Assembly (NCBI GenBank): GCA_052327205.1
Contig: CM126207.1
Span: forward strand, 51,770,001 to 51,834,000
DNA: 64,000 nucleotides
Reading direction: 5' to 3'
Origin: Somniosus microcephalus
Taxonomy: Eukaryota
The translations under genes and the position numbers were made by a program. The notes beneath the pieces were generated by a model. It had not been told where the DNA came from, ran no database searches, and saw only the letters and a program-made list of their open reading frames with translations. Of this stretch, positions 1 to 56,771 are shown in pieces; positions within the stretch are counted from its first letter, which is position 1, and each line of letters starts with the position of its first letter.

Positions 1-968
1 GGTATGTTGGCCTTCATAGCGAGAGGGTTTCAGTACAGGAACACAGATGTCTTGCTGCAGTTGTACAGGGCCTTGGTGAGACCTCATCTTGAGTATTGTG
101 TGCAGTTTTGGTCGCCTTATCTGAGGAAGGATGTTCTTGCCATGGAAGGAGTTCAGCGAAGATTCACCAGGCTGATACCTGGGATGGCAGGAATGACGTA
201 TGAGGAGAGATTGGGTCGATTGGGCTTGTACTCGCTGGAGTTTAGAAGAATGAGAGGGGATCTCATTGAAATTTATAAAATTCTGACAGGACTGGACAGA
301 CTAGATGCAGGAAGGATGTTCCCGATGGTCGGGGAATCCAGAACCAGGGGTCACAGTCGAAGGGTAAGGGGTACGCCATTTACGACAGAAATGAGGAGGA
401 ATTTCTTCACCCAGAGAGTGGTGAACCTGTGGAATTCTCTACCACAGAAGGCAGTTAAGGCCAATTCATTAAATATATTCAAGAAGGAGTTGGATATATT
501 TCTTAAGGCTAAAGGAATCAAGGGGCATGGGGAGAAAGCAGGGACCGGGTACAGGAAACTTTGTGCTATCTGGCACCGCCGGGACCGAGCTGTTGCCGTT
601 CCCTCAAAACTGCCGGACACACCAGCGCTGATGTTGAAACATACGGAGATTTTCAGCTCCGTGTGAATCAACAAACCCTGTTGCTTAGCAACAGCTTCTA
701 AACAGTCGGCAAGTGTCTCTAGCTGAAGCTGTTGCTTAGCTACAGACCTTGCAGAGCTTGACTGTTGAGAAAAAAGCAACGAAAAGGAAAAAAACCTAAA
801 CGGCTCCTGATTTTTGCCGGTGGCTCGAGCTTGCCGGACATTTAGCCTCCGGATAACACAAAGTTCCCTGTACTGAACTTGGATGATCAGCCATGATCGC
901 ATTGCATGGCGGAGCAGGCTCAAGGGGCCGAATGGCCTACTTCTGTTCCTATCTTCTATGTTTCTATG
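1..968 (+). mobile_element. CR1 LINE 3' end (ORF2 C-terminus plus 3' tail), interrupted by a MITE at 552-870
   Basis: ORF 4..666 has CR1 ORF2 C-terminal motifs (LVRPHLEYCVQFWSP, LGLYSLEFRRMRGDLIE, FFTQRVVNLWNSLP). The tail resumes at 873 (gatcagccatgatc...aatggcctact...ttctatgtttctatg). Confidence 0.92.
552..870. mobile_element. Non-autonomous Tc1/mariner-type MITE (copy 1)
   Basis: About 22-bp TIRs (CAGGAAACTTTGTGCTATCTGG ... CCGGATAACACAAAGTTCCCTG) flanked by TA at 550-551 and 871-872. Removing it restores the CR1 tail gggTActga. Confidence 0.88.
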
Positions 969-3900
969 GCCTAGCAAGCCACTCTGTTGTATCAAACTGC
1001 TACAAAAAACAAGAATAAAATTAGGTGGACTACCCAGCACCGATCTAGGCATTGGATTCCGACAAGACAAAGGCACACCTAGCCCAGTCGACTTTGCAAA
1101 GTCCTCCTCACTAATATCTGGGGACTTGTACCAAAATTTGGAGAGCTGTCCCACAGACTAGTCAAGCAACAACCTGACAGTCATTCTCACAGAATCATAC
1201 CTTTCAGCCAACGTCCCAGACTCTCATCACCATCCCTGAGTATGTCCTGTTCCACCGGCAGGACAGACCCACTAAAGGTGGCAGCACAGTGGTATACAGT
1301 CAGGAGAGAGTGGCCCTGGGGATCCTCAGTGTTGACTCTGGACCCCATGAAGTCTCATGGCATCAGGTCAAACAATGCCAAAGAAACCTGCTAATTACCA
1401 CCTACCGCCCTCCCTCAGTTGATCAATCAGTACTCCTCCATGTTGTACACCACTTGGAAGAAACAATGAGGGCAGGAAGAAACAATGAGGGCAGCAAGGG
1501 CACAGAATGTACTCTGGGTGGGGGAATTCAATGTCCATCACCAAGAGTGGCTCGGTAGCACCACTACTGACTGAGCTGGCCGAGTCCTGAAGGACATAGC
1601 TGCCAGACTGGGCTTGCGGTAGGTGGTGAGAGAACCAACATGAGAGGAAAAACCTACTTGACCTCTTCCTCACCAATCTGCCTGTCACAGATGCAATCTA
1701 CCTGTCGCAGATGCATCTGTCCATGACAGTATTTGTTGTAGTGACCACCGCACAGTCCTTGTGGAGACAAAGTCTCATCTTTACACTGAGGGCACCCTCA
1801 TCGTCTTGTGTGACACTACCACCGTTCTAAATGGAATAGATTCAGAACAGATATAACAGCTCCAAACAGCAGTAGCAGAATTGTATTCCACCACAATCTG
1901 TAACCTCATGGCCCAGCATATCCCTCACTCTATCGTTGCAATAAAGTCAGGGGACCACCCTTAGTTCAATGATGAGTGTAGAAGAGCATGCTAGGAGCAG
2001 CACCAGGCGTACCTAAAAATAAGGTGCCAACCTAGTGAAGCTACAATGCAGGACTGCATTCATACTAAACAGCAGAAGCAGCATGCTGTAGACATGCCTA
2101 AGTGATCCCACAACCAATGGATCAGATCAAAGCTCTGCAGTTGTGAATGGACTAAGGGAGTGCTGTAACCATTCTATGAATGGTGGTGGACAATTAACAA
2201 CAACTACTTGTATTTATATAGCGCCTTTTAATGTTGTAAAACGTGCCACAGCGCTGCACAGGAGTATTAGAAAACACAAAATTTGACACTGAGCCACAAG
2301 GATAAATTAGGGCAGGTGACCAAAAGCTTGGTCAAAGAGGTAGATTTTAAGGAGCGTCTTAAAGGCGGAAAGAGAGGTAGCGAGGCGTAGAGGTTTAGGC
2401 AGGGCATTCCAGAGCTTGGGGCCTAGGCAACACAAGGCACGGCCACCAATGGTTGAGCGATTATAATCGGGGATGCTCGAGGGCAGAATTAGAGGAGCGC
2501 AGATATTGCGGGGGGTGGGGCTGAAGGAGATTACAGAGATGGGGAGGGGTGAGGCCATAGAGGGATTTGAAAACAAGGATGAGAATTTTGAAATTGTGGC
2601 GTTGCTTAACGGTCAGCGAGCACAGGGGTGATGGGCGAATGGGACCTAGCTGCCCGTGTCCTAACTCGCACCAAGTTTTGGATGACCTCAAGTTTACGTA
2701 GGGTAGAATGTGGGAGGCCAGCCAGGAGTGCGTTGGAATAGTCAAGCCTAGAGGTAACAAAGGCATGGATGGGGGTTTCGGCAGCGGATGAGCTGAGGCA
2801 AGGGCGGAGACGGGCAATGTTACGGAGGTGGAAATTAAACAACTGGCAGGAGGAGGCGGCTCCATGAACATCCCCATCCTCAATGACGACAGAGTGCAAA
2901 AGACAAGGCTGAAGCGCTTGCAACCAACTTCAGCCAGAAATGATGAGTGGTTGATCCATTTTGGCCTACTCCTCAGGTCCCCACCATCACAGAAGCCAGT
3001 CTTCACCCAATTCGATTCATGCCATATGATATCAAGAAATGGCTGAGCGCGCTGGATATAGCGAAGGCTATGGGCCCTGACAACATCCCGGCTGCACTGC
3101 TCAAGACTTGTGCTCCAGAACTAGCTGCACCGCAGGCTAAGCTATTTCAGTACAGCCACAACCCTGGCAGCTACCTGCGAAAGCAGAAAATTGCTCAAGT
3201 ATGTTCTGTCCACAAAAAGCAGAACAAATCCAATCCAGCAAATTACCGCCCCATCAGCCTACTCTCTCAGCAAAGTGATGAAAGAGGTTGTTGACGGTGC
3301 TTTCAAGCAGCACTTGCAAATAACCTGCTCAGCGATACTCAGTTTGGATTCTGCCAGCAGCACTCCATTCCAGACCTCATTACAGCCTTGGTCCACGTGG
3401 ACAAAAGAGCTGAATTCCAGAGGTGAGGTGAGAGTGACTGCCCTTGACATCAAGGCAGCATTTAACTGAGTGTGGCATCAAGGAGCCTTAGTAAAAAGTC
3501 ACACCTAGCACGAAGGAAGGTGGTTGTGGTTGTTGGAGGCCAATCATCTCAGCCCCAGGAGTGTGTCTCAGGGCAGTGTCCTGGGCCAAACCATCTTCAG
3601 TTACTTCATCAATGACCTTCACTCCATCACAAGGTCAGAAGTGGGGATATTCGCTGAACTGCTTGGATAATGAAGCAGCCAGTGCCTGCATGCAGCAAGA
3701 CCTGAACAACATTCAGGCTTGGACTGATAAGTGGTAAGTAACATTCGTGCCACATAAGTGCCAGGCAATGACTATCTCCAACAAGAGAGAGTCTAACTGC
3801 CTCCCCTTGACCTTCAACTGGATTACATTAGTCGAATCCCCCACTATCAACATCCTAGAGGTTACCATTGACCAGAAACTTAACTGGGCCAGCCACGTAA

Positions 3901-4490
3901 AAATACTGTGGCTGCAAGAGCAGGAGTATTTGTAAACTGGCGAGCGACTCCCCAAAGCCTATCTACTATCGACAAGGCACAAGTCAGGAGTGTGATGGAA
4001 TTCTCTCCACTTGCCTGGATGAGTGCTGCTCCAACAACACTCAAGAAGCTCAACACCATTCAGGACACAGCAGCCTGCTTGATCGACACCCCATCCACCT
4101 TATACATTCACTCCCTCCACCGGTGCACCGTGGGTGCAGTGTGTACTATCTACAAGATGCACTGCAGCAACTCGCCAAGGCTTCTTTGACTCCCAAACCT
4201 GCGACCTCTACCGCCTAGAAGGACAAGGGCAGCAGGCGCATGGAAGCACCACTACCTCCCAAGTTCTCCTCCAAGTCACACGCCATCCTGACTTGGAAAT
4301 ATATTGCCGTTCCTTCATTATTGCTGAGTCAAAATCCTTGAACTCCCTCCCTAGCAACACTGGGAGTACCTTCGCCACATGGACTGCAGCAGTTCAAGAA
4401 GGCGGCTCATCACCACCACCTTTTTGAGGGCAATGAGGGATGGGCAATAAATGCTGGCCTTGCCAGCGACGCCCACATCCTGTGAATTAA
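969..4490 (+). mobile_element. Degenerate near-full-length CR1-clade LINE (APE endonuclease + RT), family copy 1
   Basis: Fragmented ORFs with APE motifs (ITTYRPPS) and RT motifs (AMGPDNIPAALLKTCAPELA, NPANYRPISLLS, ALDIKAAF). The 3' tail reads gggcaataaatgctggccttgccagcgacgcccacatcc. Confidence 0.88.
2198..2832 (-). mobile_element. L2-clade LINE 3' fragment nested in the CR1-clade element
   Basis: Minus-strand ORFs carry IHAFVTSRLDYSNALLAGLP and GPKLWNALP, typical of the L2 C-terminus. The (CAA)n tail is at 2198, and aattaa flanks both sides (2192-2197, 2833-2838). Confidence 0.85.
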
Positions 4491-5428: not shown

Positions 5429-5440
5429 GCTGCCCTTCAG
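5429..5440 (+). CDS. ACAP2: ACAP2 12-nt microexon (AALQ), phase 0-0, BAR-PH linker
   Basis: Polypyrimidine tract, TGC at 5417-5419, then ttag|GCTGCCCTTCAG|gtaagt. It joins in frame to the DFSS exon at 16585. The paralog ACAP3 has TLLQ before DFS (recalled). Confidence 0.8.
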
Positions 5441-10254: not shown

Positions 10255-13200
10255 TTATGGGATGTGGGCATTACTGGCAAGGCCAGCATTTATTGTCCAT
10301 TCCTAGTTGCCCTTGAGGTGGTGGTGAGCCACTGCCTTGAACTGCTGCAGTCCGTGTGGTGAAGGTACTCCCACAGTGCTGTTAGGTAGGGAGTTCCAGG
10401 ATTTTGACCTAGCGACTACAGAGGAACGGTGATATACTTCTAAATTAGGATGGTATGTGACTTGGAGGGGAACTTCTAGGTGGTGGTGTTCCCATGCGCC
10501 TGCTGCTCTTGTCCTTCTAGGTGGTAGAGGTCGCGGGTTTGGGAGGTGCTGCCGAAGAAGCCTTGGCGAGTTGCTGCAGTGCATCTTGTAGTTGGTACAC
10601 ACTGCAGCCACGGTACGCCGGTGGTGTAGGGAGTGAATGTTTCAGGTGGTGGATGGGGTGCCAATCAAGCGAGCTGCTTTGTCCTGAATGGTGTTGAGCT
10701 TGTGTTGTTGGAGCAGCACTCATCCAGGCAAATGGAGAGTATTACATCACGTAGAAACATAGAAGATAGGAGCAGGAGTAGGTCATTCGGCCCCTCGAGC
10801 CTGCTCCGCCATTCAATCACACACTCCTGACTTGTGCCTTGTAGATGGTGGAAAGGCTTTGGGGAGTCAGGAAGTGAGACACTCGCCGCAGAATATCTAG
10901 CCTCTGACCTGCTCTTGTTGCCACAGTATTTATGTGGCTGGTCCGGTTAAGTTTCTGGTCAATGGTGACCCCCAGGATGTTGATGGTAGGGGATTCGGCA
11001 ATGGTAATGCCGTTGAATGTCAAGGGGCGTTGGTTAGACTTTCGCTTGTTAGAGATAGTCATTGCCTGGCACTTGTCTGGTACGAATGTTACCTACCACT
11101 TATCAGCCCAAGCCTGAACGTCATCCAGGTCTTGTTGCATGCGGGTATGGACTGCTTCATTACCTGAGGAGTTGTGAATGGCCCTGAACACTCTGCAATC
11201 ATCAGCGAACATCCCCATTTCTAACCTTCCCTCCAACATAAGGTCATTGATGAAGCAGCTGAAGATGGTTGGGCCTAGGACACTGCCGTGAGGAACTCCT
11301 GCAGCGATGTCCTGGGGCTGTGATGATTGACCTTCAACCACCACAACCATCTTCCTTTGTGCTAGGTATGACTCCAGCCAGTGGAGAGTGCCCCCCCCCC
11401 CCCCAGTCCCATTGACTTCAGTTTTACTAAGGCTCCTTGATGCCACACTCGGTCAAATGCTGCCTTGATGTCAAGGGCAGTCGCTCTCGCCTCACCTTTG
11501 GAATTCAGCTCCTTTGTCCATGTTTGGACCAAGGCTGTAATGAGGTCGGGGGCCGAGTGGTCTTGGCGGAACCCAAACTGGGTATCCGTGATCAGGTTAT
11601 TGGTGAGTAAGTGCTGCTTGATAGCACTGTCGAGGACACCTTCCATCACTTTACTGATGATTGAGAGTAGACTGATGGGGCGGTAATTGGCCTGATTGGA
11701 TTTGTCCTGCTTTTTGTGGACAGAACATACCTGGGCAGTGTTCCACATCGTCGGCTAGATGCCAGTGTTGTAACTGTACTGGAACAGCTTGGCTAGAGGC
11801 GCGACTAGTTCTGGAGTACAAGTCTTCAGCACGATGGCTGGGATGTTGTCGGGGCCCACAGCCTTTGCTGTATCCAGTACGCTCAGCTGTTTCTTGATAT
11901 CATGTGGAGTGAATCGAATTGGCTAAAGACTGGCTTCTATGATGGTGGGGACCACAGCAGGAGGCCAATATGGATCAACCACTTGGCACTTCTGGCTGAA
12001 GATGGTTGCAAATGCTTTAGCCTTGTCTTTTGCACTCACGTGCTGGGCTCCACCATCATTGAGGATGGGGATATTCATGGAGCCTCCTCCTCCCATTAGT
12101 TGTTTAATGCTCCACCACCATTCACGACTGGATGTGGCAGGACTGCAGAGCTTTGATCTGATCCGTTGATTGTGTGATCGCTTAGTTTTGTCTATAGCAT
12201 GCTGCTTCTGCTTTTTAGCATGCATGTAATCCTGTGTTGCAGCTTCCCCAGGTTGGCACCTCACTTTTAGGTATGCCTGGTGCTGCTGCTGGCATGTTCT
12301 TCTACACTCCTTATTGAACCAGGATTGGTCCCCTGGTTTGATGGTAATGGTAGAGTGAGGGCTATGCCAGGCCATGAGGTTACAGATTGTGGTGGAATAC
12401 AATTCTGCTGATGGCCCACAGCGCCTCATGGATGCCCAGTTTTGAGCTGCTAGATCTGTTTGGAGTCTATCCCATTTAGCATGGTGGTAGTGCCACACAA
12501 CACGATGGAGGGTGTCCTTGGTGTGAAGATGGGACTTCGTCTCCACAATGCCTGTGCGGTGGTCACTGCTACCAATACTGTCATGAACAGATGCATCTGC
12601 GACAGGTAGATTGGTGAGGACGAGGTCAAGTAGGCTTTTCCCTCATGTTGGTTCTTTCACCACCTGTTGCAGGCTCAGACTGGCAGCTATGTCCTTCAGG
12701 ACTCGGTCAGTAGTGGTGCTACCGAACCACTCTTGGTGATGGACATTGAAGTTCCCTACCCAGAGTACATTTTGTGCCCTTGCCACTCTCGGTGCTTCTT
12801 CCAAATGGTGTTCAACATGGAGGAGTACTGATTGATCAGCTGAGGGAGGGCAGTAGGTGGTAATCAGCAGGAGGTTTCCTTGCCCATGCTTGACCTGAAG
12901 CCATGAGACTTCATGGGGTCTGGAGTCAATGTTGAGGACTCCCAGGGTCACTCCTTCCCGACTGTATACCACTGTGCCGCCACCCCTGGTGGGTCTGTCC
13001 TGCTGGTGGGACAGGACCTACCCAGGGATGGTGATGGAGGAGTTTGGGACATTGGCTGAAAGTTATGATTCTGTGAGTATGACTATGTCAGGCTGTTGTT
13101 TAACTAGTCTGTGGGACAGCTCTCCCAATTTTGGCACAAGTCCCCAGATGTTGGTGAGGAGGACTTTGCAGGGTCGACTGGACTGGGTTTGCTGTGTCCA

Positions 13201-15676: not shown

Positions 15677-16584
15677 ATTTTATTTTCAGAGTAGCAAAAA
15701 TGAACTATATTTGGATTGTTTCCTAGTAATACGTGGTCATTGAAAATGCTTTATCTTCTAAGTTTTAATCGTGCATGTAGCAGATCATTTTGTTCTACAT
15801 CCTATGCTCGTTATTCCACTGCTATCTGTGTTGTTCCACCTCTGCTATGCTTAACCTGTCTGCCACAAAGCAGTAAGAAAGGACAAAAAGTGTGATGTTA
15901 TACTTTGTATGCTCTTTAACTTAAAATATTGTTGCTAATAGGGGAAAAAACATGGTGGACTAATACTTAGAGGAATGACCTGAAGAAGATGGCGAGGTCT
16001 TTTACTATGCCATTGGCAGTGTCAGTAGCTAGCCAGGTTAGGATGACTGACTGACTGAAACATTTATGTGAATGGCTGGCAGAGTTTTCCAAGACCAATT
16101 GGGGAAAGTGCTCTCTCTCATCAGCTTGAGGAGCAGTTACACTCTTGCTGCATAGTATGGGAGCTATGATGCCAGATGGAAGGAAACAAGGTAAAAAAAT
16201 AAATTAAATGAAGCTAAACAAAGCAAGTACTTCACATGCAAGGCAGCAGTGCCCCCATTGTGCTTCACTAAAAACTATTATGCTTCAGTGACAACTCTGC
16301 CTAGCAAAAAGTGGAAGTCAGAGTGATTATAATTAGGCTCGTGGTGTTTGCTCTCTCATTAAGATGGTGATCCTTTAAGAACTTGGAAAAGCAAAATTTG
16401 CTGTTACGACAGAGATTATTGTGGTAACTAATATTTCACTCTGTTCCAGCAACACAATTTTACATGTTCATAGGATGGCCATGCTACAAACATTACTAAT
16501 TTAAACTATCTTTCGTACATCATTTCTTTCCTGTCTGTCAAGTAATTGTTGCTTTTATATTTGGTTTAAAATCATATACTTTAG

Positions 16585-16697
16585 GACTTCTCCAGCGATG
16601 ATCCCAAGATAGAATTTAACACCGACGCTGCCAATGGCATAGTCATGGAAGGATATTTATATAAACGAGCCAGCAATGCCTTCAAAACCTGGAACCG
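16585..16697 (+). CDS. ACAP2: ACAP2 exon, PH domain start (DFSSDDPKIEFNTDAANGIVMEGYLYKRASNAFKTWNR)
   Basis: ttag|GAC ... CG|gtaag, 113 nt; near-identical to the ACAP2 PH N-terminus. Confidence 0.96.
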
Positions 16698-17259
16698 GTA
16701 AGATTAGACTTTGGTTTTAGATTGAAATACTCTTCTGCAGTTGCTATGCAATCACAGTACAGTAAAGGGCATGTGGCTAACATAAAATCGTTGATACAGT
16801 GTACACCTATGGTTTTGTGCTGATTATCATTTGTCAGTAGAAATGTGAGAATAATGTCACGAGAGTCCATTACATTAACTGATGAGAACATAAGAATTAT
16901 ATTTCACAACCAAATGAAATAGCTAGTTACCAGATTTTTTTCATCTTGCATGTAATGACGGAATACAATACAAAATTGTCAAACATCAGATTTGGCTGTC
17001 CAAAATGATACTCTAGTTTTCCTTAAACATTTCCAATTAAACCTTGTATGATTTGGAAAATTTAAACTACAAAAGCAGTTTATCGAACAAGCCAAGGCTT
17101 ACAGTAGATCATTAGTGACTGATTTAAAGTTGGGAAATGCTGCAAAGCCACCTAGGCTCAAAGCGGTACACTCCAGTTAACCAAGCTTGATTACAACTGA
17201 AACTGCTTGGAAAATTATGCTAGCCAAAAGCAAGTAGACTCATTCTATTTGGCTTGAAC

Positions 17260-18440
17260 TTGCTTGTATGCAGTTTGACCGTGTCACATTTAAGCGGGGT
17301 AACCTCTTTCTGAACATTCAGACTTCCAGCGTATCAGGAGCTTCTAGTGATGTTCATTAAGTGGCAGGTCTGAGTTTTCTGGGGGCTGGTTGTGTTCTCC
17401 AATTATTGCTGTTTCTCTTCTGAGAGGTGGCGGCAAGATATGTGCACGGCAGGGAGCCAGACTGTCTGTATTGTTTTCAGTACTCCTGTGATGATTCTCA
17501 TAGCAGTGTCAAGTTGCACGTCAATGAGATTTGCATGTGCACTCCCTGCCCACGCTGGTGCGCAATATACTGAAAAAACACGAGCCAAGGTGTCTGTCTG
17601 CAAAGTGTGAGCATCTGTACCCCAACTTGTCCTGGCTAATTTGGAGATTAAGTTGATCCTAGTCTTTATCTTGACGACAGTTTTCGTCAGATGTTGACGT
17701 GAAACTACGATCCAGAGCCACTCCAAGTTAATTTGGGAAGTCATCGTGCCTGAGTTCAGTATGACCGAAGGGAGCATTCAGGCGCTTCTTCGCATGCCAG
17801 TTGCTCAAATGAAATGCAGAGACGAACACTTTCTGAGGATTCGGATGAAGCCGCCACAGTTATAATAGTCAGCAAGTATTTTTAAGTCGTCTGCAAGTGT
17901 GTGTTACGCTTGGGCAAGAGTTGCTTGGACGGCTATCACAAGGTCATCTGCATATCCAGATGTCCTCAACTGAGTTGGTGGGATGTCACTGATGTAAATA
18001 CAAAAAAGTGATGATGCCAAGACTGACCCCTGTGGGAGCTCATTATTCAGTTGTTGAGGTCTGCTAATCGTGAGATACCGCTGAACTTGTGGTTAGTGAG
18101 CATGGCTGTTAGGCCAATGTTTGCTTGCAGCGTCGTATTCTAGATATTTTCAGCAGTAGACCGTCCCTCCCTACCACATCATATGCTCCAGACAAGTCCA
18201 CAAAAGCCACTGCTGTTTTGTGCCCACACTAATAACCAGCTTCAATGTGGGTTGAGAGTACAATTACCTGGTCACAGGAGTTCTGTCCAGGTCTAAACCC
18301 ACATTGCTCCTTTGGGTCGTAATCCCCGAAGAGTGGCATGAGTCTTTGGGTTAACATCCTTTCCAGGAATTTGCACAAAACACCCAGTAATGATATCGGC
18401 CAGTAATTTTTTGGAGCATCGGTTGGTTTGCGACTGCTGT
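17260..18440 (-). mobile_element. Vingi/Ingi-like non-LTR retrotransposon RT fragment
   Basis: ORF 17403..17777 has RINLISKLARTSWG...YCAPAW...DVQLDTAMRIITG. Upstream minus-strand remnants resemble PQGSVLA, YADD and YRPISLL. Confidence 0.65.
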
Positions 18441-18504
18441 TCTGAAAGGATCATTAGAAATATGTAAACAAAATTAATATTGTGAAGAACATTACAAAAT
18501 GTAA

Positions 18505-18680
18505 AATCAAAAAAAAAAAAATGCTAGGAATACTCAGGTCAGGCAGCAGAACTGACGAAAGGTCATTGACCTGAAACGTTAACTCTGTTTCTTTTTCCAC
18601 AGATGCTGCCTGACCGAGTGTTTCCAGCATTTTCTGCTTTTATTTTAAATTTCCAGCATCTGCAGAATTTTGCTTTTGTA
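18505..18680. mobile_element. Penelope-type inverted terminal-repeat remnant
   Basis: A short arm (aaaatgctaggaatactcaggtcaggcagca) is inverted against a long arm (tgctgcctgaccgagtgtttccagcatttt). It contains CTGACGA-hairpin-GAAAC. Confidence 0.6.
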
Positions 18681-18792
18681 ATACACTGTAGTACAGAATG
18701 TGATGGTTACTACGGTTAACTATATAGGTCCAACCAATCTTGCATAAACAAGAACTCTGGGGCAGGGGAAACAGGGTGGTTGGAGAAACATT

Positions 18793-19337
18793 GGCCTGGA
18801 TATTAACAGGGGACGGGTTACGAGGCGTGGGGGCGAAGTTTTGGACGGAAGGTCCAGGTTTCCCCACATGTTGTGGTGTTTTAACTGCCCGGAAGTCAGC
18901 CTGATTTGACTTGCAGGGCACAAGACCAGGTAGGTCCGATCCACGACCCCGGTGGGCAGGGAGATCCGATCTCCAACCTGGTCGGGGGGGGGCCCCGATC
19001 ACTGACCCTGGGGGAAGGACTCCAGCTCCTCCTGGCCCACAAGCAGCGCTGTGATGGCACTTACCTCCTCACCGAAACTGTCCTTGCCTTGCTTCAGCTG
19101 CAAGCTTTCCCGAGGCCTGAGAAACGGCCTCCCACTGTCGAACCTAAATCAGAGGCCTCTAGCCTCTAACATTTAAATTGCCAGCCCGCCTCCTGGGAGC
19201 TGGTTGACTGCCCATCCCTTGTCCTGCCTCCGTAAAACCCGGAAGTAGGCGGGTTGGGGTTGGGGTTCAGAATTTTTAAATTTTCACTCCCCACCCATTT
19301 TGTGTGTCCTAAAATACCCCCCCCCCCCCCCGCCCCC
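18793..19337. mobile_element. Harbinger-type non-autonomous element (right end blurred by poly-C)
   Basis: Starts ATT|GGCCTGGATATT, has a GC-rich interior, and ends taaaata(C)n followed by aat. Confidence 0.45.
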
Positions 19338-19659
19338 AATTAAGTCTGCAATTTAATTTTCTTTTGTAGAGTAATATTTTTGTGCACAAAAGAACACCTA
19401 TGAAGAAGTTTCAATTTTGTACTTACGAGCTTTTTGCCAGGTAATTCAAGTTTCTGAAAATCCGTGACAGACTATTTCCTTCAGCACTTAATTTAAAAAA
19501 AAAAAAAAAAAAATCAAATCCTGTACTTAAAATGTGCATGAACATTTTCCCAAGCCTGACCATTCACTTCCTGCCAAGACTTGCTGTTTGTAAGTCCCGC
19601 CTCTTCGTCCACCCCTGTGTAGTGATGGAAAACTACTGCTGACAAAATCCCCCAGATTG

Positions 19660-20330
19660 ATCTGGAAAGGAGTCGATTGAGAGGTGGTCTGATAGAGGTA
19701 GACAAGATTGTTAAGGGTATAGGAAAATTAATCCGGAATCTTACTTCAAATTAAACTGCAGGAGTAGAACTAGGGGACACTGGTACAAAATAGAGAAGGG
19801 TATCTTTTGGGCAAATATCAGGAAATTTTTAAGTGTGATCAAAGTATCGAATAAACTTCCAGATAGAGTAGTGGAGGCAAAATCTCTTGAAGACTAAATA
19901 AACAACTGAATGCTACAATGAGGATACATTAGGATTCTTATCTTTGTTTTCAGATCCCTCCAGTGCCTCGCCCTTGCCTATCTCTGTTACCTCCTCCAGC
20001 CTTACAAACCTTTGAAATCTCTGTGCTCCTCCAATTCTGGCCTTATGCACATCCTTGATTTTCATAGCTTCAGCTGCCTAGTCCCTAAGCTCTGGAATTC
20101 CCCCTTAAACCTCACCACCTCTTAAGACGCTTCTTAAAACCTAGCCCTTTGATCAAGCCAGTCCTGATATCTCCTTGTGGCTTGGTGTAAAATGTTGTTT
20201 GATAACGCTCCTGTGAAGCGCCTTGGGACATTCTACTACATTAAAGGCGCAACATAAATGCAAGTTGCTGTTGTAGGATCCCTCTGGGTGGATGAATTCT
20301 GATGGGCCAAATGGTCTTCCCCGTCTGTGC
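19660..20330 (+). mobile_element. Decayed CR1 3' fragment with nested L2 3' end (about 19950-20275)
   Basis: CR1-like remnant (RGGLIEV; tail gatgggccaaatggtcttcc) split by an L2 tail ending aaaggcgcaacataaatgcaagttgctgttg. Confidence 0.65.
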
Positions 20331-20894
20331 AACAGGATCACATGATAATTACAATCATACCTGTATCATACATTTCTATAATTAGACAGAGCTTCATAAA
20401 CTCCCCATACCAATACCCACAGCATCACTGAAGCATGCTGAGGAAAATTTGCGTTGTCCAAATTTTTCCCTGGGCAGAACAATGGGAGATTCACTAGTAT
20501 GTAGTAAATTTGTAGTGACTGCATGCTTACTCATGAAATGTACAAACTATTTCAAGTCTTTATGCAGTGGGTTTCTGTCTCCTATGGTATATAACTTTTA
20601 CTCCATGGTTATTGATCAGTGTACAGTACTGAAATCAAATGCATGTTTCTGTAATTTTATAGTCACCTCTTGAAAATGTGAAACTGTTGATTTGTATCAA
20701 ACAGTACAAGACTACTCAATCTCCTCTGTTTTGTTGGGACCTTGCACAAAAAGGCTATGCTAGCTTATACTGCTTTACTTTTAGTATGCATTTAATCTTC
20801 CTGTGTTTTCAGATCATAGTGTTTCATTTTACTATTTTCATTTTTTCTGTTTTCTTTCTATGTCTTGATCCCACCCCATTTTGTCATGTGACAG

Positions 20895-20915
20895 GAAAAA
20901 GACCCCCCACATCAG
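20895..20915 (+). CDS. ACAP2: Candidate ACAP2 21-nt microexon (KKTPHIR), phase 2-2, PH beta1-beta2 loop
   Basis: Long U-rich tract, then acag|GAAAAAGACCCCCCACATCAG|gtacca. The phase fits the 16697/23190 intron exactly, giving TWNR-KKTPHIR-RWFS. Confidence 0.7.
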
Positions 20916-21499
20916 GTACCAACCTGTCAGCTGGACATCTTATCTGCTCCCCATTCCTATCTCTGCATATTAGCTCTCACCTGTCTGCAAGTGTCCAAAG
21001 AACTTCGGGTAAACCTGGTTTAATCCACGGCCTATGAACTGGTCACTGTGCTGTCCTTTTTACAGCATGGGCACTGTGTTAGCTGCAAACCAGAGGCAGC
21101 ATTCTTTGCTTGTTTTGCCTTTCGCAATATTAACAACTAATCATCCTTTCTACTAACCTGCTGCACTTCAAGTTCTGACTGTGTGGTAAACTGATGGTTT
21201 TAATAAAGAAAATGTTCAAGTTTTAAAATTCCATGCTACGGAAGTGTTCAACTAACGAACTTGGTTTATTTAGAAAAAAATCGTTTACTCACATTTGTTT
21301 TTAAAAAAAGACTTTTAATATCAGTTTTGTGAAAACTAGGTTTCTTTTTCAAATCTATTTTTCAAGTGTTTTTGTTCTTAAAGTGAAAATAAACATATGG
21401 TTTAAAATGATCACATTTCATTAGTCACTAGAAAATGTATTTCCATTTTATAATCAATTTATGGTGCAATGGAGTGGCAGGATGAAGATTTGCAGGGAT

Positions 21500-21810
21500 A
21501 TAATAGTATAGTGCGTATGGTATTAGACTAACAACCTAGCTTTTGAGCGTTCAAATCCCACCAAGACAGTTTGGGAAATTGAATTCAATAAATCTGGTGA
21601 TTTGTGGGCTGATGCCAGAAAAAATTAGCTTGAAAGTTGGTGGATTGTTGTAAAATCTCAAGTGGTTTCTAATGTCTTTTCCTGCTCCTGCCTGGTCTGG
21701 CTGATATGATTGCAGACCACTCTATGTGGTTGATCCTTAAAACCAGCAAGCAATTAGAGATGGGCAATAAGTGTGACCTTGCCAGTATCACCTACATCCC
21801 AACAACATTT
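21500..21810 (+). mobile_element. SINE-like derivative sharing both ends with the CR1-clade LINE family
   Basis: B-box-like gttcaaatccc head, a middle part (cagacc..atgtggttga..cttaa) matching the LINE 5' end at 13290-13345, and a tail (gatgggcaataa..ccttgccag) matching the LINE 3' end. Confidence 0.65.
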
Positions 21811-22029
21811 ATAAAAAAAAAAGAAAAAAGTCCCCTTCATGGGATTCTAGTTTCAAAGTGTTGAGGCACTTCTCTAGAGGAAGGGAAAGTGGAGGGGTGA
21901 TCACCCGAAGTAACGTTACGTACTACTTTATCGTCAACACAGGTGGACACATGTCGTTGGCCTTGGCTAGGGAATACTGTGTGTCAGAAAAAGGGGTGGG
22001 GAGCAGAAAGCAGGGCGGGGGAGAGAAAG

Positions 22030-22320
22030 AGGATCTCTCCCAGTAACTCAGTTGTGGAAGTATGTGTGTAGCTGAGAGACATGGACCAACGTTCCTGGTT
22101 TGCGCTGAGCTAGCTGATCAATTGGCATTGGCACCTCAGGCTAGGGAAAAAAGAAAATCAGCTAAGTTTCTGCTCCTGATCACTGTCCAGTGATCATGTT
22201 GAAAACTGCATATGTATGGGCATGGCCTGAGAACAGAATCGGGTTTGGCTGTGGTTCCCCCCTCCATGGTAAAATAGCACGAATAGTACTGTCGGCTCAC
22301 ACATGGCCACTTGAGTTAAG
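22030..22320 (+). mobile_element. LF-SINE-like element
   Basis: ctgagctagctgatc...aaaatcagctaagtttctgctcctgatcactgtccagtgatc; a reverse-oriented homolog lies at about 38055-38100. Confidence 0.5.
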
Positions 22321-22342
22321 TGCTGGTGGAGATGGAGTCATT

Positions 22343-23041
22343 GGCCTAGAAATTCGGTGGCGTCCCGTTTGGGGCGCCAGTCTTGCCAGGGTGCCGGAAG
22401 TACCGCCCCGGAAGGAGTCGCGAGCGCCCGCCGGAAATTCAGTTTGAGCGCCCCAAACGGAAGCGTGGCGCTACTCGAGGCGCCCCGCATCCGTCTTGGG
22501 GCGCTTCAACTGAAAATCGCAGCGCAACGTGCCGCAGCACCACACGCTGCGGCACGGCGCGCTATGGTACTGCAGGCCTTCCTCCCCTTAAAGGGGAGGG
22601 GCCTGCTGCAGCGCGATCTGAGATTGCGAGTGCTGGCAAAAGAGCCCGGCACCGAGGAGAAGTGCTGGGCTCTTGGGAGACAGCTGGCACAACGCGGGGG
22701 GCGGGGGTGCTCAGGAGGCCAGGGACGGCTGCGCGAAGAGGTGCTGGCAGGCAGCCAGCAAAAAAAAATGGCCGCCCCGCACCTCAGCGCCTCTACCGCC
22801 GCAGGTAGGCCCCCCTGAACCGGTTGCAAATTGCGACCGGCATTACAGCGGGGGGCGCTACCAAATTTCACGATCGGGGCGCTGCGCACACCGATGACAT
22901 CATCGGTGGCGCAGCGCTACCGGCTAACGCCGCCCTTAGCGCCCTGCTAAATTTCGCGGGAGGCGTGGCCAGTGGGGCTAAACCCACTAAGTGCCCTCTT
23001 TGGGCGCTAACTGGTGGCACAGCCCACCGAATTTCTAGGCC
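22343..23041. mobile_element. Young GC-rich Harbinger-type MITE
   Basis: Perfect 18-bp TIR GGCCTAGAAATTCGGTGG (22343-22360 and 23024-23041) with ATT TSD (22340-22342, 23042-23044). Confidence 0.88.
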
Positions 23042-23189
23042 ATTGCCTTCAGAAAAGGAGAAAATCGGCCTACAAGAAGCAGTGGAGCAGGACTGTTTTC
23101 AAAGCTGTCCATATATTGCAGTCATTAAATGTATATTTTGTTTTTGTAGTACTCTCCCATCTACAACCTACAAGTTTTTCTCTTTACAG

Positions 23190-23241
23190 GCGATGGTTTT
23201 CAATTCAGAACAACCAGCTTGTTTACCAAAAGAAGTTTAAG
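23190..23241 (+). CDS. ACAP2: ACAP2 exon, PH (RWFSIQNNQLVYQKKFK)
   Basis: acag|G ... AAG|gtaagc, 52 nt, phase 2-0. Confidence 0.96.
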
Positions 23242-23646
23242 GTAAGCAAAAAGTGCATTGTGTATTGAACATAAAATGTTGAGCTATCAGCTGCCAATTA
23301 TTTAGTAATAAATCTTAAGTTAATGATACCAAGGTTCAGAAACACGGTGTCACTAATACCACCCATACAAATCCTCACCAAAAAAAAATCAGTAAAATTG
23401 AAATCATCTTTATAAAGACGACTCTGTACCAGTGTATGACTGTAAAGTCATAGTCTAATACGTTTCATTTGGCTTTTGTAAACCTGTTGAGCGGTTACTG
23501 TTTTTGTTTCATGGCACCTGAACGCCATAATTAGATTTAATCCTTATATTTGCTCTCCAGTAGCAATGGTTCTATGATAACCAGTATTGTTTAAACATTG
23601 AACCATTTTAATATAGCTGAACAATTTTTTTTAAATTTCCTCACAG

Positions 23647-26474: not shown

Positions 26475-26683
26475 AAATTAGATAGAAGATCTTCCCCTTC
26501 TACCAGCAGCCTGGACTCTGGGAGTGAATTGAAGGAGCGACCAGTGAAAGGAGAAAGCGCACTTCAGCGCGTGGAGTGCATTGCTGGCAATACGAATTGC
26601 TGTGACTGCGGCCAGGCAGACCCACGTTGGGCAAGCATTAACCTTGGAATCACACTATGCATTGAATGTTCAGGAATTCACAG
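26475..26683 (+). CDS. ACAP2: ACAP2 exon, ArfGAP zinc finger (KLDRRSSP...[29 protein letters not shown])
   Basis: ccag|AAA ... AG|gtatta, 209 nt; ArfGAP signature CxxC-x16-CxxC-x4-R with the arginine finger. Confidence 0.97.
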
Positions 26684-27116
26684 GTATTAACATGAAAAAG
26701 ATTATAAGTTATGCTAGATTGAAAAATATTTGTGTGTATTCACCTATTTGATACTAATTGGGCTCAGTATTCAGTACTGTTGCTGCTTTTCACTGAAGCT
26801 GGATGAACAGCTTACAGGTAACTTGAAATCTTTGCTATGATTCTAATTTTGGTAGGGTGCTGGGCTCTCAATTGGAGGACAAAATACATTCAAAACTTGA
26901 GACTTGATTCTGCTCAATTGGGGAGGTTTGCAAAAGAAGATGACTAAATATGAAAAAACTACAAGAACAGAAAGATTAGCTGGACTATTACTGATTGACC
27001 ACAAGCATAATTTATTGCTGCATTGTTGAGCTTCAGTACCTTGCAGAAGTTTATCTAGTGATGAATGCCTGCATTATTTGTGTTGTACCCTGTATTAGTT
27101 TATTTTCTGTGTTTAG

Positions 27117-28554: not shown

Positions 28555-28908
28555 GTAATACCCTATCTGTGATGTAGCATGTGGAAATAGAACAAGAACT
28601 ACCAATGAGTGATTGAAAAAATAAATCATTATTAATTGAATTGTGTATAAAACAAAGATGCAAAACATAGTTCTGCCATCCATTAATTTTTTTAGACCAG
28701 TGGCCAACAACCATGTCTTTTTCACCTGCAGTAAAGAATTCATAAATATATTAAGTCTACCAAAGTCAGTAATTCACTTCAAACTATTACTAACTAACAA
28801 TCTATCTTTCAATGTTCTTGTATTTTTCTTTGAATTTCTCAAAAACAATTTCCTCTGTTTTCCTCTGTTTCAATGGCTGCTTTGCTTTGCTAACATGCAT
28901 GTAACCAG

Positions 28909-29010
28909 CTGCTGTTAGTAACACTGAGCCACGTCGGGAGTCTCTCTTCTGCCCAGATGAGCTAGACTCGCTATTCTCCTACTTTGACACCTCTTCAAAA
29001 TCTAATAGTA
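28909..29010 (+). CDS. ACAP2: ACAP2 symmetric cassette exon (AAVSNTEPRRESLFCPDELDSLFSYFDTSSKSNS)
   Basis: ccag|CT ... A|gtaagt, 102 nt, phase 1-1. The SLFCPDELDSLFSYFD motif is recalled from ACAP3. Confidence 0.85.
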
Positions 29011-29832
29011 GTAAGTACTGCACATATGGAGCTTCTCGGTGCCTGTGCTACTAAATTCATCCACTGCTTGATTCCACTTTATAGGTGCATATGTGTGTTT
29101 CTTTTGTGCTTTTGACCTCCCAAAGCATTTTAAAACATTATTTGTTCAAGTCGCATTTTCCATCATGCATTTGATTTTCCCCTTTGTATTTGTAGTCAGT
29201 GTATTTCATTGTTAACCATATTGGATATTGCAGTAAGAGTAGAAACGTGAACTGATGCATTTTGTAGCAGTATCTGTGAAATGTTGGGATGTTTGATTTT
29301 AAATTCTGGTGTGTTCTCATTTGTGATTTTGTTTTTCATCAGTGTAAACCTTATCAATATGAAGGAGCATTCTATGTTTGTGCATTCATTTTTACATTAG
29401 TAAAATATTGTAGCACCAAAAAGGTAGTGTCAGTTTCTTTTGTGTTTATAGATCCCCAGGGAACGCAGGAACAAAATTAAATAAAGTTAAACTTAGTTTT
29501 ATTTAAAAGCATTCAGAATACAGTACTTGTGTTCTGTTCTATTCTGATTGTATGTTTGTTATGATAACATTGGGCTGTTAGGTAAATGAATAACAATTTG
29601 CATTGAATATGGTTTAAAGCCTACTTTCTGTAGACTGATTAAACGCTCCTTTGTTATATCAAATAAGTCTATTAATCAAGAATATGACTGCTTGATGCTA
29701 AATATTCCACCACCTTTTTGTTCAGAAAGTATTAATCATATTCATAGAAATCTTGTTATATCAACTAAAACTGGAAAAATTATAATAGGTTTGACATGAG
29801 GCAATCTTGTTTAACTTGTCTGTTTCTTTAAG

Positions 29833-29928
29833 GAGTAAAAAATTCAGACAGTGGTGTGCCGAATAGCTCTGAGGGCAGCAAGGATGTGGTAATGTCGGTG
29901 ACCTCCAATAGCAGCTTACCTGAACCAG
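29833..29928 (+). CDS. ACAP2: ACAP2 linker exon (VKNSDSGVPNSSEGSKDVVMSVTSNSSLPEP)
   Basis: taag|GA ... CCAG|gttggt, 96 nt, phase 1-1; resembles human VRSNDSG...SLYEP. Confidence 0.85.
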
Positions 29929-48860: not shown

Positions 48861-50239
48861 AATAGAAAATTAATAAGCTGATTATGATGTGCACAAATAA
48901 TGCAAGTTGGGAAACAACAAGCTGTGATTGTGCTAAGGGTGGCTGTGGTGTGTCCCTTTGTAACTCAAGAGGATAAGTGCTGTGGCCAAAGGATTATCTT
49001 CATTTTCCTCCATGAGTGCAATCTGGTTATATTGTAAATGCAATTACTGCCTCAATCCCAACATATGTGAGAACTGTGACAGATCAGACTTTCAAGGAGC
49101 TATCTTGGGGTATTCTAGAAGGTATGCAGGATACATGTGCTGTTGCTAATACATCCCAAAGGAGGAAGTTGCAGCATGTAAATGGGGAAGAAACATTATC
49201 AGAAAAGATGTATACAGCTCCTTGCTGGGAGCAGTGTATTGAATGAGTCTACTTGTGTGGAGAGAGACAACAGCACCCTGACTTCAAAATATAAGCATAC
49301 TAAGCAACATAACTACCATAAGGCAACTGTACTCCCATAATCTGATTAGCTGCAGAGAGATATCTGTAGAAACTGGCAAACAAAGTCCATAAATCAAAAG
49401 ATACAAGTCAATGTTGCATGTTGAGTTTCTTTTGTACCAATTATGTGCATTTCCTATTGTTTGTAACACTTTGGTGTCACACTAACTGCAAATTTCTGTA
49501 TCATACCAAATATTCCCCACCTCAATTGAAATTTCTTCCACTTGATTGACTGATATGCAAATTAATTAATTATGATTGAAACATTAATTGTAAGTCAGTT
49601 ATAAGTTTAAAAAGATGAGCCCATCAAATCGCAAAACACTTAATTTCTTTTGCCTTTTCCACTAAAATTTATCCACTATGTTGAAGGCCTCCACCTCTTC
49701 CAAAAAGCTTGTGTGGACTTGAGGATTTTTGCTTTGAGCTGTGCAGTTATTAGCTGAATTTAGATTGTGCAGTCTAAGCATCTTGATACCATGTTTAGGC
49801 AGGCCAGTAAATGAGCAGCCTGCCCACCTGAAACGGGTGTAGTGCTTAAGTATGCAAATCAAGGTCCTATGCCAGTTGTGACTAATTGGTTAGCTCTTTC
49901 AAAGAGCCAGTACATGTACAATAGGTTGAATGGCCTCTGCTGTGTGATGTAAAATTCAGGTACAAATGGCTGGAGCATGCACTATATACACTTACCTAGT
50001 TGTACTAGAAATTGAGCAGCTGAACAAATGGACCTTAAAGGGACTGCTGGAGAATGCTAACAAAATGAGGCCCAAGAAATTTGAGTTATTTTCTTGGGCC
50101 CACAAAAAAACTCTCGCCCATTCAAGGCCCTTTCAGTTATCACCTCCCAATTTCTTGCCCTCCTTGACAGGTTCAGGCTTCAGGCAGGCCTGGAGCTGGA
50201 GCTGTGTTGACTTTTGGGGGCAAGTAAAATTTCTCCCCC

Positions 50240-51525
50240 ATTGCCAAGAACTAGCCAAGCTGTCCAGTACAGCTATAACACTGGCATCTACCCTACAATG
50301 TGGAAAATTGTCCAGGTATGTCCTGTCCATAAACTGCAGGATAAATCCAATCTGGTCAATTACCACCCCATCAGCCTACTTTCAATCATGATGGACAGTG
50401 TTGTTGACAGTGCTATGAAGTGGCAATTGCTCACCAATAACCTGCTCACCAATGCTCAATTTGGGTTCTGACGACTACTCAGCTACAGACCTCTATAGCC
50501 TTGGTCCAAACAAGGACAAAAGAGCTGAATTCCTGAGGTGAGATGTGAGAGACTGCCCTTGACATCAAGGCAGCATTTGACTGAATGTGGCATCAAGGAG
50601 CCCTAGTAAAATTGAAGTCAATGGGAATTGTCTTCAGTGGCTGGAGTCATAACTAACACAAAGGAAGATAGTTGTGGTTGTTGTTGGCTAACCACCTCAG
50701 GCCCAGAACATTGCTGCAGGAGTTCCTCAGAGCGGTGCCTAGGTCCCACCATCTTCAGCTACTTCATCAATGACCCTGCTTCCATCACAACGTCAGAAGT
50801 GGGGATGTTTGCTGATTATTGCACAGTGTTCAGTTTCATTTGCAATTCCTCCAATAATGAAGCATGCAGGAAAACCTGGACAACATTCAGGTTTGAGCTG
50901 ATACGTGGCAAGTAAGTTTCATGCCACACAAGTGCCAGTCAATGACCATATCCAACAAGAGTGTGTGTAATTACCTCCCCTTGACCGTCAATGGGATTCC
51001 CCCACAATCAACAGTGACCAGAAACTTAACTGGACCAGCCACATAAATACTGTGGTTACAAAAGCAAGTCAGAGGCTAGGTATTCTGCAGTGAGTGTCTC
51101 CCCTCCTAATTCCCCAAAGCCTTTCCACCATCTACAAGGCACAAGTCAGGAGTGTGATTGGAATACTCTCCACTTGCCTGGATGAGTGCAGCTCTAACAA
51201 CACTCAAGAAGCTCAACAACATCCAGCACAAAGCAGCCTGCATGATTGGCACCCCATCCATCACCTTAAACATTCACTCCTTCCACCACTGGTGCACCAC
51301 GGCTGCAGCCTGTACCATCTACAAGATGCACTGCAGCAATTTGCCAAGGCTTCTTTGACAGCATCTCCCAAATCTCTACCACCTAGAAGGACAAAGGTAG
51401 CAGGTACATGGGAACATCACGGACTGCAGCGGTTCAAGAAGGTGGCTCACCACCACCTTCTCGAGCAATTCGGGATGGGCAATAAATGCTGGTCTTGCCA
51501 GCCACGTCCCGTGAATGAATTTTTT
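50240..51525 (+). mobile_element. CR1-clade LINE family copy 3 (3' half, decayed)
   Basis: NYHPISLLS, QFGF, GPTIFSYFIND, MFADY, MEYSPLAWMSA; same 3' tail as copies 1 and 2. Confidence 0.85.
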
Positions 51526-52334
51526 AAAAAGACAAATAGTATCTTAATTTAAGCTCTCTTCAAAATTAGGAACAAATTGGTTGAATTTTGAAAACTCTAA
51601 TCATGAGTTTTTGCTGACAGCAATGTTCATATTTTCTTATAGCTGTGAAAGAGAGGCACATCTAGGAACTGAACAGAAAATATCAGATTCAGTGTTTGCA
51701 TAAATCATTCAGAATGTTATAAACAAGTGCTGCCAGCTATGGGATCTCTCCCATCCCCCCCCCCCCCCCCCCCAAACAACAGACAGCCCCACATCCTATC
51801 TCTTCCTTCATTGCTGACAGACACTAGGAATCCACCAGATAACCAAGACTCACTTTTATGCCCAAGTTACATACACCACACCTCTGGTTTGCTTTCCACA
51901 GTTCTACCAAAACCAGATTCCCAATTCAGTGCCGCCAGATCGAAGGATAATACCTCCACGATACACCCCCCCCCCCCCCCAAACCCCCCACACACACACA
52001 ATAATGCATGGCATTATGGAATTTAATCCCCAAAACATCAGTAAAAAAAAATAGTATTTCAAATATATATTTATATATATATATTGACTGTCAGTCACTG
52101 TAAATGAGTGGTCCTGATGTTATCCTATCAAGACCTACAGTATATTGTTGTAAAGCAGCAATTCCTCTGATTCAATGCAAGACCATGGAGATCTATTGTA
52201 TCATTAAAAATCTTACAGCTGTGTCCACTTTCTGTCTGCAAAACGTTACTTTTGTCTTTGTCACATTTGTGCCAACTTTAAAATAGTAAACCTCAATGTC
52301 AACTTGCTCCTGTCATTAAATTAATTATCGGTTC

Positions 52335-56429: not shown

Positions 56430-56771
56430 GTCCTTTCGGACGGTTTTTGAATTGTGGCCTTTTCTGAAGCTTCAGGTTGGCATGTATGAGATCTGTCAAT
56501 TTCCCTTCGCATCTCTGCCGTTTCCTCGTCGCATAATTAAGCTCCTTGTCAATTTCCTGAAATATGTCGTTTCTTTGCATTGGTTGCTGCAATTCTCAAT
56601 GAAGTCGCATCACGTCCGGTACGAGGCTGGATTGGTCGTTAACCCTGAAGCCGATTGGCCTGTTCCTTCACCTATCGGCTTCGCCATGGCGCTTTGCTGC
56701 GATAGAAAGTGGAAATCGACACAAAGTTGCCCCCAGGCCGCGACAATTGGTATCGGCACGGTCTGAAAACA
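56430..56771 (+). promoter_or_regulatory. XXYLT1: XXYLT1 CpG-enriched promoter / 5' UTR
   Basis: CpG-dense, with inverted CCAAT (ATTGG) at 56579, 56631, 56654 and 56746, and a YY1-like palindrome CGCCATGGCG at 56682-56691. Confidence 0.7.

What the first reader, a model, noticed from the sequence alone, without database searches (positions are those of the whole stretch)
20895..20915. Candidate 21-nt microexon inserting basic residues (KKTPHIR) into the ACAP2 PH lipid-binding loop
Seen: AG|21 nt|GT after a long U-rich tract, phase 2-2, fitting between KTWNR and RWFS. Three ACTAAY motifs lie downstream (21136, 21152, 21251) and TGCATG upstream (20520, 20640). Known: the PH beta1-beta2 loop (K-x(n)-(K/R)xR) binds phosphoinositides, ACUAAY is the QKI motif and UGCAUG the RBFOX motif. 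I recall similar KKPDHIR-type inserts in predicted tetrapod ACAP2 isoforms but have not verified this. Inference: a tissue-regulated switch of membrane specificity, invisible to ORF calling.
Basis: partly seen in the sequence, partly recalled or inferred. Interest (0 to 1): 0.8.

Follow-up and report, generated by a model that had tools for sequence, protein, structure and literature searches.

The report
Known ancient ACAP2 PH-domain microexon
A 21-base optional exon in a shark membrane-trafficking gene (ACAP2) is real, is kept from sharks to humans and is already in public gene annotations; it adds seven residues beside the loop that likely contacts membranes, but its effect on lipid binding is untested.

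Summary
The 21-nt exon at 20895-20915 (CAG|…|GTACCA, phase 2-2) is real. It inserts KKTPHIR into the ACAP2 PH domain of a cartilaginous fish. RefSeq isoform pairs differing by seven residues and carrying this insert exist in sharks, rays and chimaera; teleost, amphibian, reptile, bird and mammal forms read KKxxH(I/N)R, including human XP_006713620.1. A 21-nt human ACAP2 event, HsaEX0001799, is catalogued with PSI 61 in neural progenitors, 47 in neurons, about 10 in breast and lung and 2-3 in tumours. I infer it is the same exon. So the exon is known, not hidden.

Its function was not found in print. It falls 3 residues after ACAP1 Loop1 (membrane and lattice contact) and lengthens a segment that is 11 residues in 65 of 79 family members to 18. 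It likely retunes membrane binding, as the cytohesin microexon does. QKI/RBFOX control rests on motifs only (uncorrected P 0.007 and 0.013). No junction reads came from this species, and both structure models failed. The scan's index held no earlier ACAP2 finding.

The parts
20895..20915 (+). 21-nt cassette microexon of ACAP2, phase 2-2, adds KKTPHIR
   Evidence: same peptide in RefSeq isoforms
20820..20894 (+). Long pyrimidine tract and AG-free zone ending in the CAG acceptor; nearest TGC is at -108, so no SRRM3/4-type UGC
20916..20921 (+). Weak splice donor GTACCA (score 4.5 vs 8.9 and 11.1 for the flanking exons, simple matrix)
21131..21157 (+). Candidate bipartite QKI element: TAAC half-site, ACTAAT (21136), TACTAAC (21151)
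   Evidence: binding not tested
21251..21256 (+). Third ACTAAC motif; with the two above, the only three-motif cluster within about 120 nt among 32 ACTAAY in the window
20520..20525 (+). TGCATG (RBFOX-type motif), upstream
20640..20645 (+). TGCATG (RBFOX-type motif), upstream
16585..16697 (+). Upstream ACAP2 exon (113 nt): BAR-PH linker, PH beta1 and Loop1, ends KTWN-R
23190..23241 (+). Downstream ACAP2 exon (52 nt): PH beta2 onward, RWFSIQNNQLVYQKKFK

Best explanation
This is an alternatively spliced 21-nt exon of ACAP2, conserved from cartilaginous fish to humans, that adds seven residues (KKxxHIR) to the PH domain directly after the beta1-beta2 loop, and it likely retunes how this Arf6 GAP binds and bends membranes. 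Shown: the exon, its frame, its conservation and the two annotated isoform classes. Inferred: inclusion depends on cell type. The probable human orthologue is high in neural progenitors and neurons and low in epithelial tissue and tumours. Inclusion is likely promoted by QKI at the downstream ACUAAY cluster and may be opposed by RBFOX upstream. Predicted: the invariant H-(I)-R end would take the place of W-N-R ahead of the beta2 arginine, so the loop grows by seven residues and gains two invariant lysines next to the F280/K281-equivalent membrane and lattice contact. That would change anionic-lipid affinity or BAR-PH lattice packing, and so where Arf6 is switched off.
For: Isoform pairs 7 aa apart, the longer carrying the insert: XP_067898387.1/388.1 (794/787), XP_067851365.1/366.1 (795/788), XP_078063783.1/790.1 (795/788), XP_048460153.1/154.1 (789/782). 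187 of 333 fetched proteins carry a 7-residue insert, in 8 variants; K1, K2, H5 and R7 are invariant in 8 of 8; the set is biased because searched with the insert. Human XP_006713620.1 has KKPDHIR. Two proteins known only from sequencing-run contigs of 6.4 and 3.1 kb (P0105, P0214) carry it, which implies spliced RNA (inference). HsaEX0001799, 21 nt: PSI 60.83 in NPC, 46.57 in neurons, 10.6 and 9.9 in normal breast and lung, 2.8 and 1.9 in tumours (PMC7935315 supplements). ACAP1 Loop1 276-282 forms a lattice interface, F280/K281 lie in the membrane-contact cluster, and deleting them impairs membrane recruitment (PMC6663034 passages). K-to-R spacing is 11 in 65 of 79 matched family representatives, 18 in none. 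Precedent: cytohesin-1 3-nt microexon shifts IP4 affinity about 100-fold (PMC6314551 passages). QKI position rule (PMC10202634 passages); Qki5 is high in neural stem cells and falls in neurogenesis (PMC5693031 passages).
Against: No junction reads from this species: the flanking exons had almost no coverage in two RNA runs. No lipid-binding or structural data; both AlphaFold models failed in the PH region (pLDDT about 20-37). The insert does not create the (K/R)xR motif. Amniotes carry an Asp in it (net +2 vs +3 in sharks). Acap2 was absent from the supplements of a qkI-deficient oligodendrocyte study and appeared only as gene-level rows in a QKI/EMT study (12 of 19 files searched). SRRM4 raised HsaEX0001799 from 1.1 to 10.1 in HeLa, so QKI is not the only candidate. 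Motif P values do not survive strict correction, and motif conservation in other species was not tested. The match of HsaEX0001799 to this exon rests on gene and length only.
Confidence: 0.55

Rival explanations
1. Off-switch: the insert disrupts the start of beta2 and the canonical pocket, so the long isoform binds lipid poorly and depends on Rab35, through its ankyrin repeats, for recruitment.
For: The insert splits W-N-R from R-W-F, a segment that is 11 residues in 65 of 79 relatives. Rab35-GTP recruits ACAP2 through the ANK region (PMC6358971 passages).
Against: The invariant added residues are basic (K, K, R) plus H, which fits gain or retuning better than plain disruption; a disruptive spacer need not keep its sequence for the whole gnathostome span.
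Confidence: 0.15
2. Protein-binding surface: KKxxHIR makes or blocks a contact with a partner (Arf6, cargo, or a neighbouring BAR domain) without changing lipid preference.
For: Loop1 of ACAP1 inserts into a pocket of the next dimer's BAR domain. Invariant His and near-invariant Ile suggest a shaped contact rather than charge alone.
Against: No partner data. In ACAP1 the same region is also the membrane contact, so the two effects are hard to separate.
Confidence: 0.2
3. The exon is a neural SRRM3/4 microexon like most catalogued ones, and the QKI/RBFOX motifs are incidental. This rival concerns regulation only.
For: ACAP2 is named as an IsletMIC host gene (bioRxiv 2022.04.02.486809 passage). 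PSI is 47-61 in neural cells, and SRRM4 adds about 9 PSI in HeLa.
Against: No UGC nearer than -108. PSI falls from progenitors to neurons. ACAP2 is absent from the SRRM4-induced list (file 7, 315 rows). A second ACAP2 event, HsaEX0001804, is the neural-restricted one, and the window holds a 12-nt exon with a UGC at -12 (5429-5440) that fits it better.
Confidence: 0.25
4. Chance AG..GT segment or annotation artefact with no function.
For: Weak donor; no junction reads here; 280 open AG..GT segments of 3-51 nt exist in this intron.
Against: Same position, length and four invariant residues from chimaera to human; measured, variable PSI for a 21-nt human ACAP2 exon.
Confidence: 0.02

Closest known systems
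RefSeq ACAP2 isoforms with the insert (e.g. XP_067898387.1, XP_048460153.1, XP_007900598.2, human XP_006713620.1)
   Same: Same position and length; KKTPHIR identical in most sharks and rays; KKPDHIR in amniotes.
   Different: Nothing of substance. This is the orthologous exon in one more cartilaginous fish.
Human event HsaEX0001799 (ACAP2, chr3:195312947-195312967, 21 nt; PMC7935315 supplements)
   Same: Same gene and length; variable inclusion.
   Different: Its place in the PH-coding intron was not checked directly. In the parts I saw it is a table row only, with no functional study.
Cytohesin-1/-2 3-nt PH-domain microexon (diglycine/triglycine; PMC6314551)
   Same: In-frame microexon in the PH domain of an Arf6 regulator.
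   Different: One Gly in a GEF, with measured affinity shifts, versus seven residues in a GAP whose PH domain also builds a membrane lattice (shown for ACAP1). The exons are not homologous, and no shift has been measured for ACAP2.
ACAP1 BAR-PH Loop1 (PDB 4CKG/4NSW/5H3D; PMC6663034)
   Same: KRASNAFKTW is identical, so Loop1 and F280/K281 map directly.
   Different: The solved ACAP1 chain has no insert; the two paralogous loci of this genome have no such exon in the same intron (0 of 43 and 0 of 31 candidates pass).

Membership tests
ACAP2 orthologue | PH, ArfGAP and ANK coding exons, closer to ACAP2 than to ACAP1/ACAP3 | tested here: met
   ArfGap and Ank Pfam hits; exon 26475-26684 is 96-99% identical to elasmobranch ACAP2-like proteins, 83-84% to mammalian ACAP2, 72% to an eel ACAP3; 346/465 identities to human ACAP2 vs 337/519 to eel ACAP3. 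BAR exons lie upstream of the window and were not read.
ACAP2 orthologue | XXYLT1 as neighbour (human synteny recalled) | tested here: met
   56706-57329 matches xyloside xylosyltransferase 1, 4WLG, E 1.4e-13
Conserved vertebrate microexon | 3-27 nt, frame-preserving, canonical splice sites | tested here: met
   21 nt, CAG/GT, phase 2-2
Conserved vertebrate microexon | Orthologous peptide in distant vertebrates, with included and skipped isoforms | tested here: met
Conserved vertebrate microexon | Junction reads in this species | tested here: inconclusive
   Flanking exons nearly uncovered in runs X4 and X5; no X5 reads over the exon
SRRM3/4-type neural microexon | UGC close upstream of the acceptor | tested here: not met
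   Nearest TGC at -108
SRRM3/4-type neural microexon | Strong induction by SRRM4; rises with neuronal maturation | tested here: inconclusive
   Human event: +8.9 PSI in HeLa, -14 PSI from NPC to neurons, absent from the 315-row target file; identity of the event inferred
QKI-activated exon | ACUAAY motifs in the downstream intron | tested here: met
   Three motifs at +221 to +336, one bipartite; P=0.0068 uncorrected. They lie just beyond the 200-nt zone analysed in PMC10202634.
QKI-activated exon | Skipping on QKI loss, or QKI CLIP peak | tested here: inconclusive
   No splicing row for ACAP2 in two readable supplement sets; two others could not be read
QKI-activated exon | Motifs conserved in orthologous introns | not testable with these tools
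PH-domain phosphoinositide switch (cytohesin type) | Insert in or beside the beta1-beta2 loop | tested here: met
   Between ACAP1 R285 and R286 equivalents, three residues after Loop1
PH-domain phosphoinositide switch (cytohesin type) | Measured change in headgroup affinity or localisation | not testable with these tools
   Needs binding assays; structure models failed

The most novel reading that the evidence does not exclude
An ACAP2-specific microexon, as old as jawed vertebrates and driven by QKI in neural progenitors and glia, switches the lipid specificity or lattice-forming ability of an Arf6 GAP. It would be the GAP-side counterpart of the cytohesin GEF microexon, so that splicing sets both where Arf6 is turned on and where it is turned off, for example in the Rab35-ACAP2 versus cytohesin-2 control of myelination (PMC4004601, abstract start only).
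Probability: 0.25. Interest if true: 0.6.

Novelty: already known. Interest (0 to 1): 0.3.

Why it matters
The exon itself is no discovery: it is in RefSeq across jawed vertebrates, and a 21-nt human ACAP2 event is already quantified. What remains is a cheap, well-posed experiment. A review of the field states that little is known about how splice isoforms of ARF GEFs and GAPs are regulated or differ (PMC6724607 passage). This exon changes a segment whose length is nearly fixed across the family, next to the residues through which ACAP1 contacts membranes. The shark sequence adds its age and shows which residues matter (K1, K2, H5, R7).

Tried and rejected
RNA evidence: no RNA holder was listed for 16550-23300. 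Two RNA runs added by species label, read to about 24% and 31%, laid almost only on repeats; depth was 0.08 or less over the upstream exon bin and 0.34 or less over the downstream one, and none of the 15 joints shown (47 not shown) joined these exons. This says nothing either way.

Structure: AlphaFold on 40-sequence alignments of full-length isoforms with and without the insert gave mean pLDDT 45 and no PH fold; both were discarded and no fold search was run.

Literature: the terms HsaEX0001799, KKPDHIR, KKTPHIR and 'Acap2 exon' found 0 papers. ACAP2 with microexon, splicing, PH domain, PSI, SRRM4 or QKI gave no title or abstract about this exon. Supplement searches for ACAP2 were empty in PMC12626424, PMC7821500, PMC12868881 (1 file) and PMC5548867, and gene-level only in PMC6028027 (12 of 19 files). 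Supplements of PMC9122611 and PMC10202634 were too large to read, two PMC7935315 tables were too large and one PDF had no text, and the islet preprint's supplements are closed. These may hold QKI or SRRM3 data on the exon. Subscription journals are mostly not searched.

Rejected: a kinase-site role for Thr-Pro (sharks only; amniotes read PD); a homologous exon in the paralogues (also none in 8 eel ACAP3 proteins). Five full-length salmonid ACAP2-like proteins of one cluster also lack the insert.

Full report
Observation. The segment 20895-20915 is 21 nt, follows CAG and precedes GTACCA. The flanking exons are 16585-16697 and 23190-23241. With it the frame reads KTWNR-KKTPHIR-RWFS; without it KTWNR-RWFS. 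The acceptor has a 73-nt AG-free, pyrimidine-rich zone, and the donor is weak (4.5 vs 8.9 and 11.1 on a simple matrix). It is the only one of 119 open YAG..GT candidates of 3-39 nt in the intron to pass my filters, which were set with it in view. The stretch is single-copy in the 6.45-Gb genome and matches DNA contigs of three public runs, which may include the source sample.

The gene. tblastn with a shark protein finds 14 matching pieces from 16585 to 43916; the BAR-coding exons lie before the window. ArfGap and ankyrin Pfam models hit. One exon is 96-99% identical to shark and ray ACAP2-like proteins, 83-84% to mammalian ACAP2 and 72% to an eel ACAP3. An XXYLT1 exon follows at about 56.7-57.3 kb, as in the human locus (recalled). 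The organism is therefore a cartilaginous fish and the gene is ACAP2.

Conservation. Of the 120 proteins listed, 118 matched my loop pattern: 90 lacked an insert, 5 had KKTPHIR, 1 KKTAHIR and 22 KKPDHIR. Cluster members gave RefSeq pairs seven residues apart in several sharks and rays, the longer carrying the insert; for chimaera, one skate-like species and mouse a direct comparison showed a clean 7-residue deletion. A search with the insert-bearing region returned 113 new proteins, all with a 7-residue insert: 108 KKPDHIR (mammals, birds, turtles), 3 KKSDHIR (platypus), 1 KKLDHIR and 1 KKAAHIR (the teleost Scleropages); that search favours inserts and gives no frequency. A caecilian has KKPDHNR and human isoform X9 (XP_006713620.1) has KKPDHIR. 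In all, 187 of 333 proteins carry one of 8 variants; K1, K2, H5 and R7 never vary. Some species names were cut off in the listings and completed by me. RefSeq XP models are predictions, but two proteins known only from short sequencing-run contigs (P0105, P0214) also carry the insert, which implies spliced RNA (inference). The two paralogous loci of this genome share the intron position but hold no such exon (0 of 43, 0 of 31). The simplest reading is a gain in ACAP2 before sharks and bony fish split; loss in the paralogues is not excluded.

Expression. No usable RNA came from this species. Supplement tables of PMC7935315 list a 21-nt human ACAP2 exon, HsaEX0001799: PSI 10.6 and 9.9 in normal breast and lung, 2.8 and 1.9 in tumours; 60.83 in neural progenitors and 46.57 in day-50 neurons; 1.13 vs 10.05 in HeLa with mutant vs wild-type SRRM4. 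I take it to be this exon from gene and length; I did not map it. A second event, HsaEX0001804, is brain- and retina-restricted. The window holds a second ACAP2 microexon, 12 nt, AALQ, at 5429-5440, with UGC at -12 and a strong donor. It is the better candidate for that event and for the IsletMIC mention of ACAP2, though neither link was checked.

Regulation. The 21-nt exon has no UGC nearer than -108. It has three ACTAAY downstream (3 vs 0.39 in 5000 shuffles, P=0.0068), one in bipartite form, and two TGCATG upstream (2 vs 0.20, P=0.013); ten motif tests were run without correction. QKI's activator or repressor role depends on motif position, and RBFOX motifs are co-enriched at QKI targets (PMC10202634 passages). 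Qki5 is high in neural stem cells and falls in neurogenesis (PMC5693031 passages), which fits the progenitor-over-neuron pattern. Against: no ACAP2 splicing row in two readable QKI data sets, a modest SRRM4 response, and motif conservation untested. I put QKI involvement at about even odds.

Mechanism. KRASNAFKTW is identical in ACAP1. The chain numbering is offset by 5 from the paper's, so the insert falls between R285 and R286 equivalents, three residues after Loop1 (276-282). In ACAP1 that loop inserts into a neighbouring dimer's BAR domain, F280/K281 are in the membrane-contact cluster, and deleting S277-N278-F280-K281 impairs membrane recruitment (PMC6663034 passages). Among 150 family representatives, 79 matched my pattern: K-to-R spacing was 11 in 65, 12 in 8, 13 in 4, 10 in 1 and 17 in 1; the insert makes it 18. 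The insert ends H-I-R, which could replace W-N-R ahead of R-W-F and push two lysines into a longer loop (prediction; both AlphaFold runs failed). It does not complete the (K/R)xR motif in either isoform (motif recalled). The precedent is the cytohesin-1 microexon, where one Gly shifts IP4 affinity from 0.033 to 3.03 uM and changes localisation (PMC6314551 passages). My estimates: real exon 0.97; membrane retuning 0.55; protein or lattice contact alone 0.2; loss of lipid binding 0.15.

Novelty. The exon is already annotated and, if my identification holds, already quantified in human tissue. I found no paper on its function (mostly open-access text only; several supplements unreadable). The scan's own index had no ACAP2 finding. 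Papers seen: passages of bioRxiv 2022.04.02.486809, PMC6314551, PMC6663034, PMC6358971, PMC6724607, PMC10202634 and PMC5693031; supplement searches of PMC7935315, PMC12626424, PMC7821500, PMC6028027, PMC12868881 and PMC5548867; search listing and abstract start only for PMC4004601. Verdict: real, ancient, already known, with an untested and testable function. Interest 0.3.

Noticed in passing
window 5429-5440 (+): Second ACAP2 microexon, 12 nt, AALQ, phase 0, in the BAR-PH linker. U-rich tract with TGC at -12, TAG acceptor, CAG|GTAAGT donor, and a TAAC...ACTAAT pair just downstream. Present in RefSeq isoforms of chimaera, sharks, skates, mouse and rat. Likely the neural event HsaEX0001804.
   Followed up: partly
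window about 28908-29011 (+): ACAP2 cassette exon of about 105 nt (AAVSNTEPRRESLFCPDELDSLFSYFDTSSK...), present in some shark and rat isoforms; a similar segment lies in the ACAP3-like paralogue.
   Followed up: partly
window 29832-29927 (+): 96-nt ACAP2 exon skipped in some shark RefSeq isoforms.
   Followed up: no
window about 56706-57329 (+): First coding exon of XXYLT1, same strand, downstream of ACAP2.
   Followed up: partly
window 1-663, 2947-4424, 50211-51549, 57504-58037, 60274-60642 and the minus-strand stretch 10500-13200: Fragments that look like LINE reverse-transcriptase and tail sequences (recognised from recall in the frames); much of the intron before 16585 is of this kind.
   Followed up: no
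window 18500-18740, 19200-19440, 19900-20380, 21540-22020, 22250-23185: High-copy repeats that draw thousands of RNA reads or contigs from other loci.
   Followed up: no
G000:C38:50654858 (L005/L006) and G000:C25:32371590 (L007/L008): Two ACAP paralogues with the same phase-2 intron in the PH domain; the C25 copy is ACAP3-like.
   Followed up: partly
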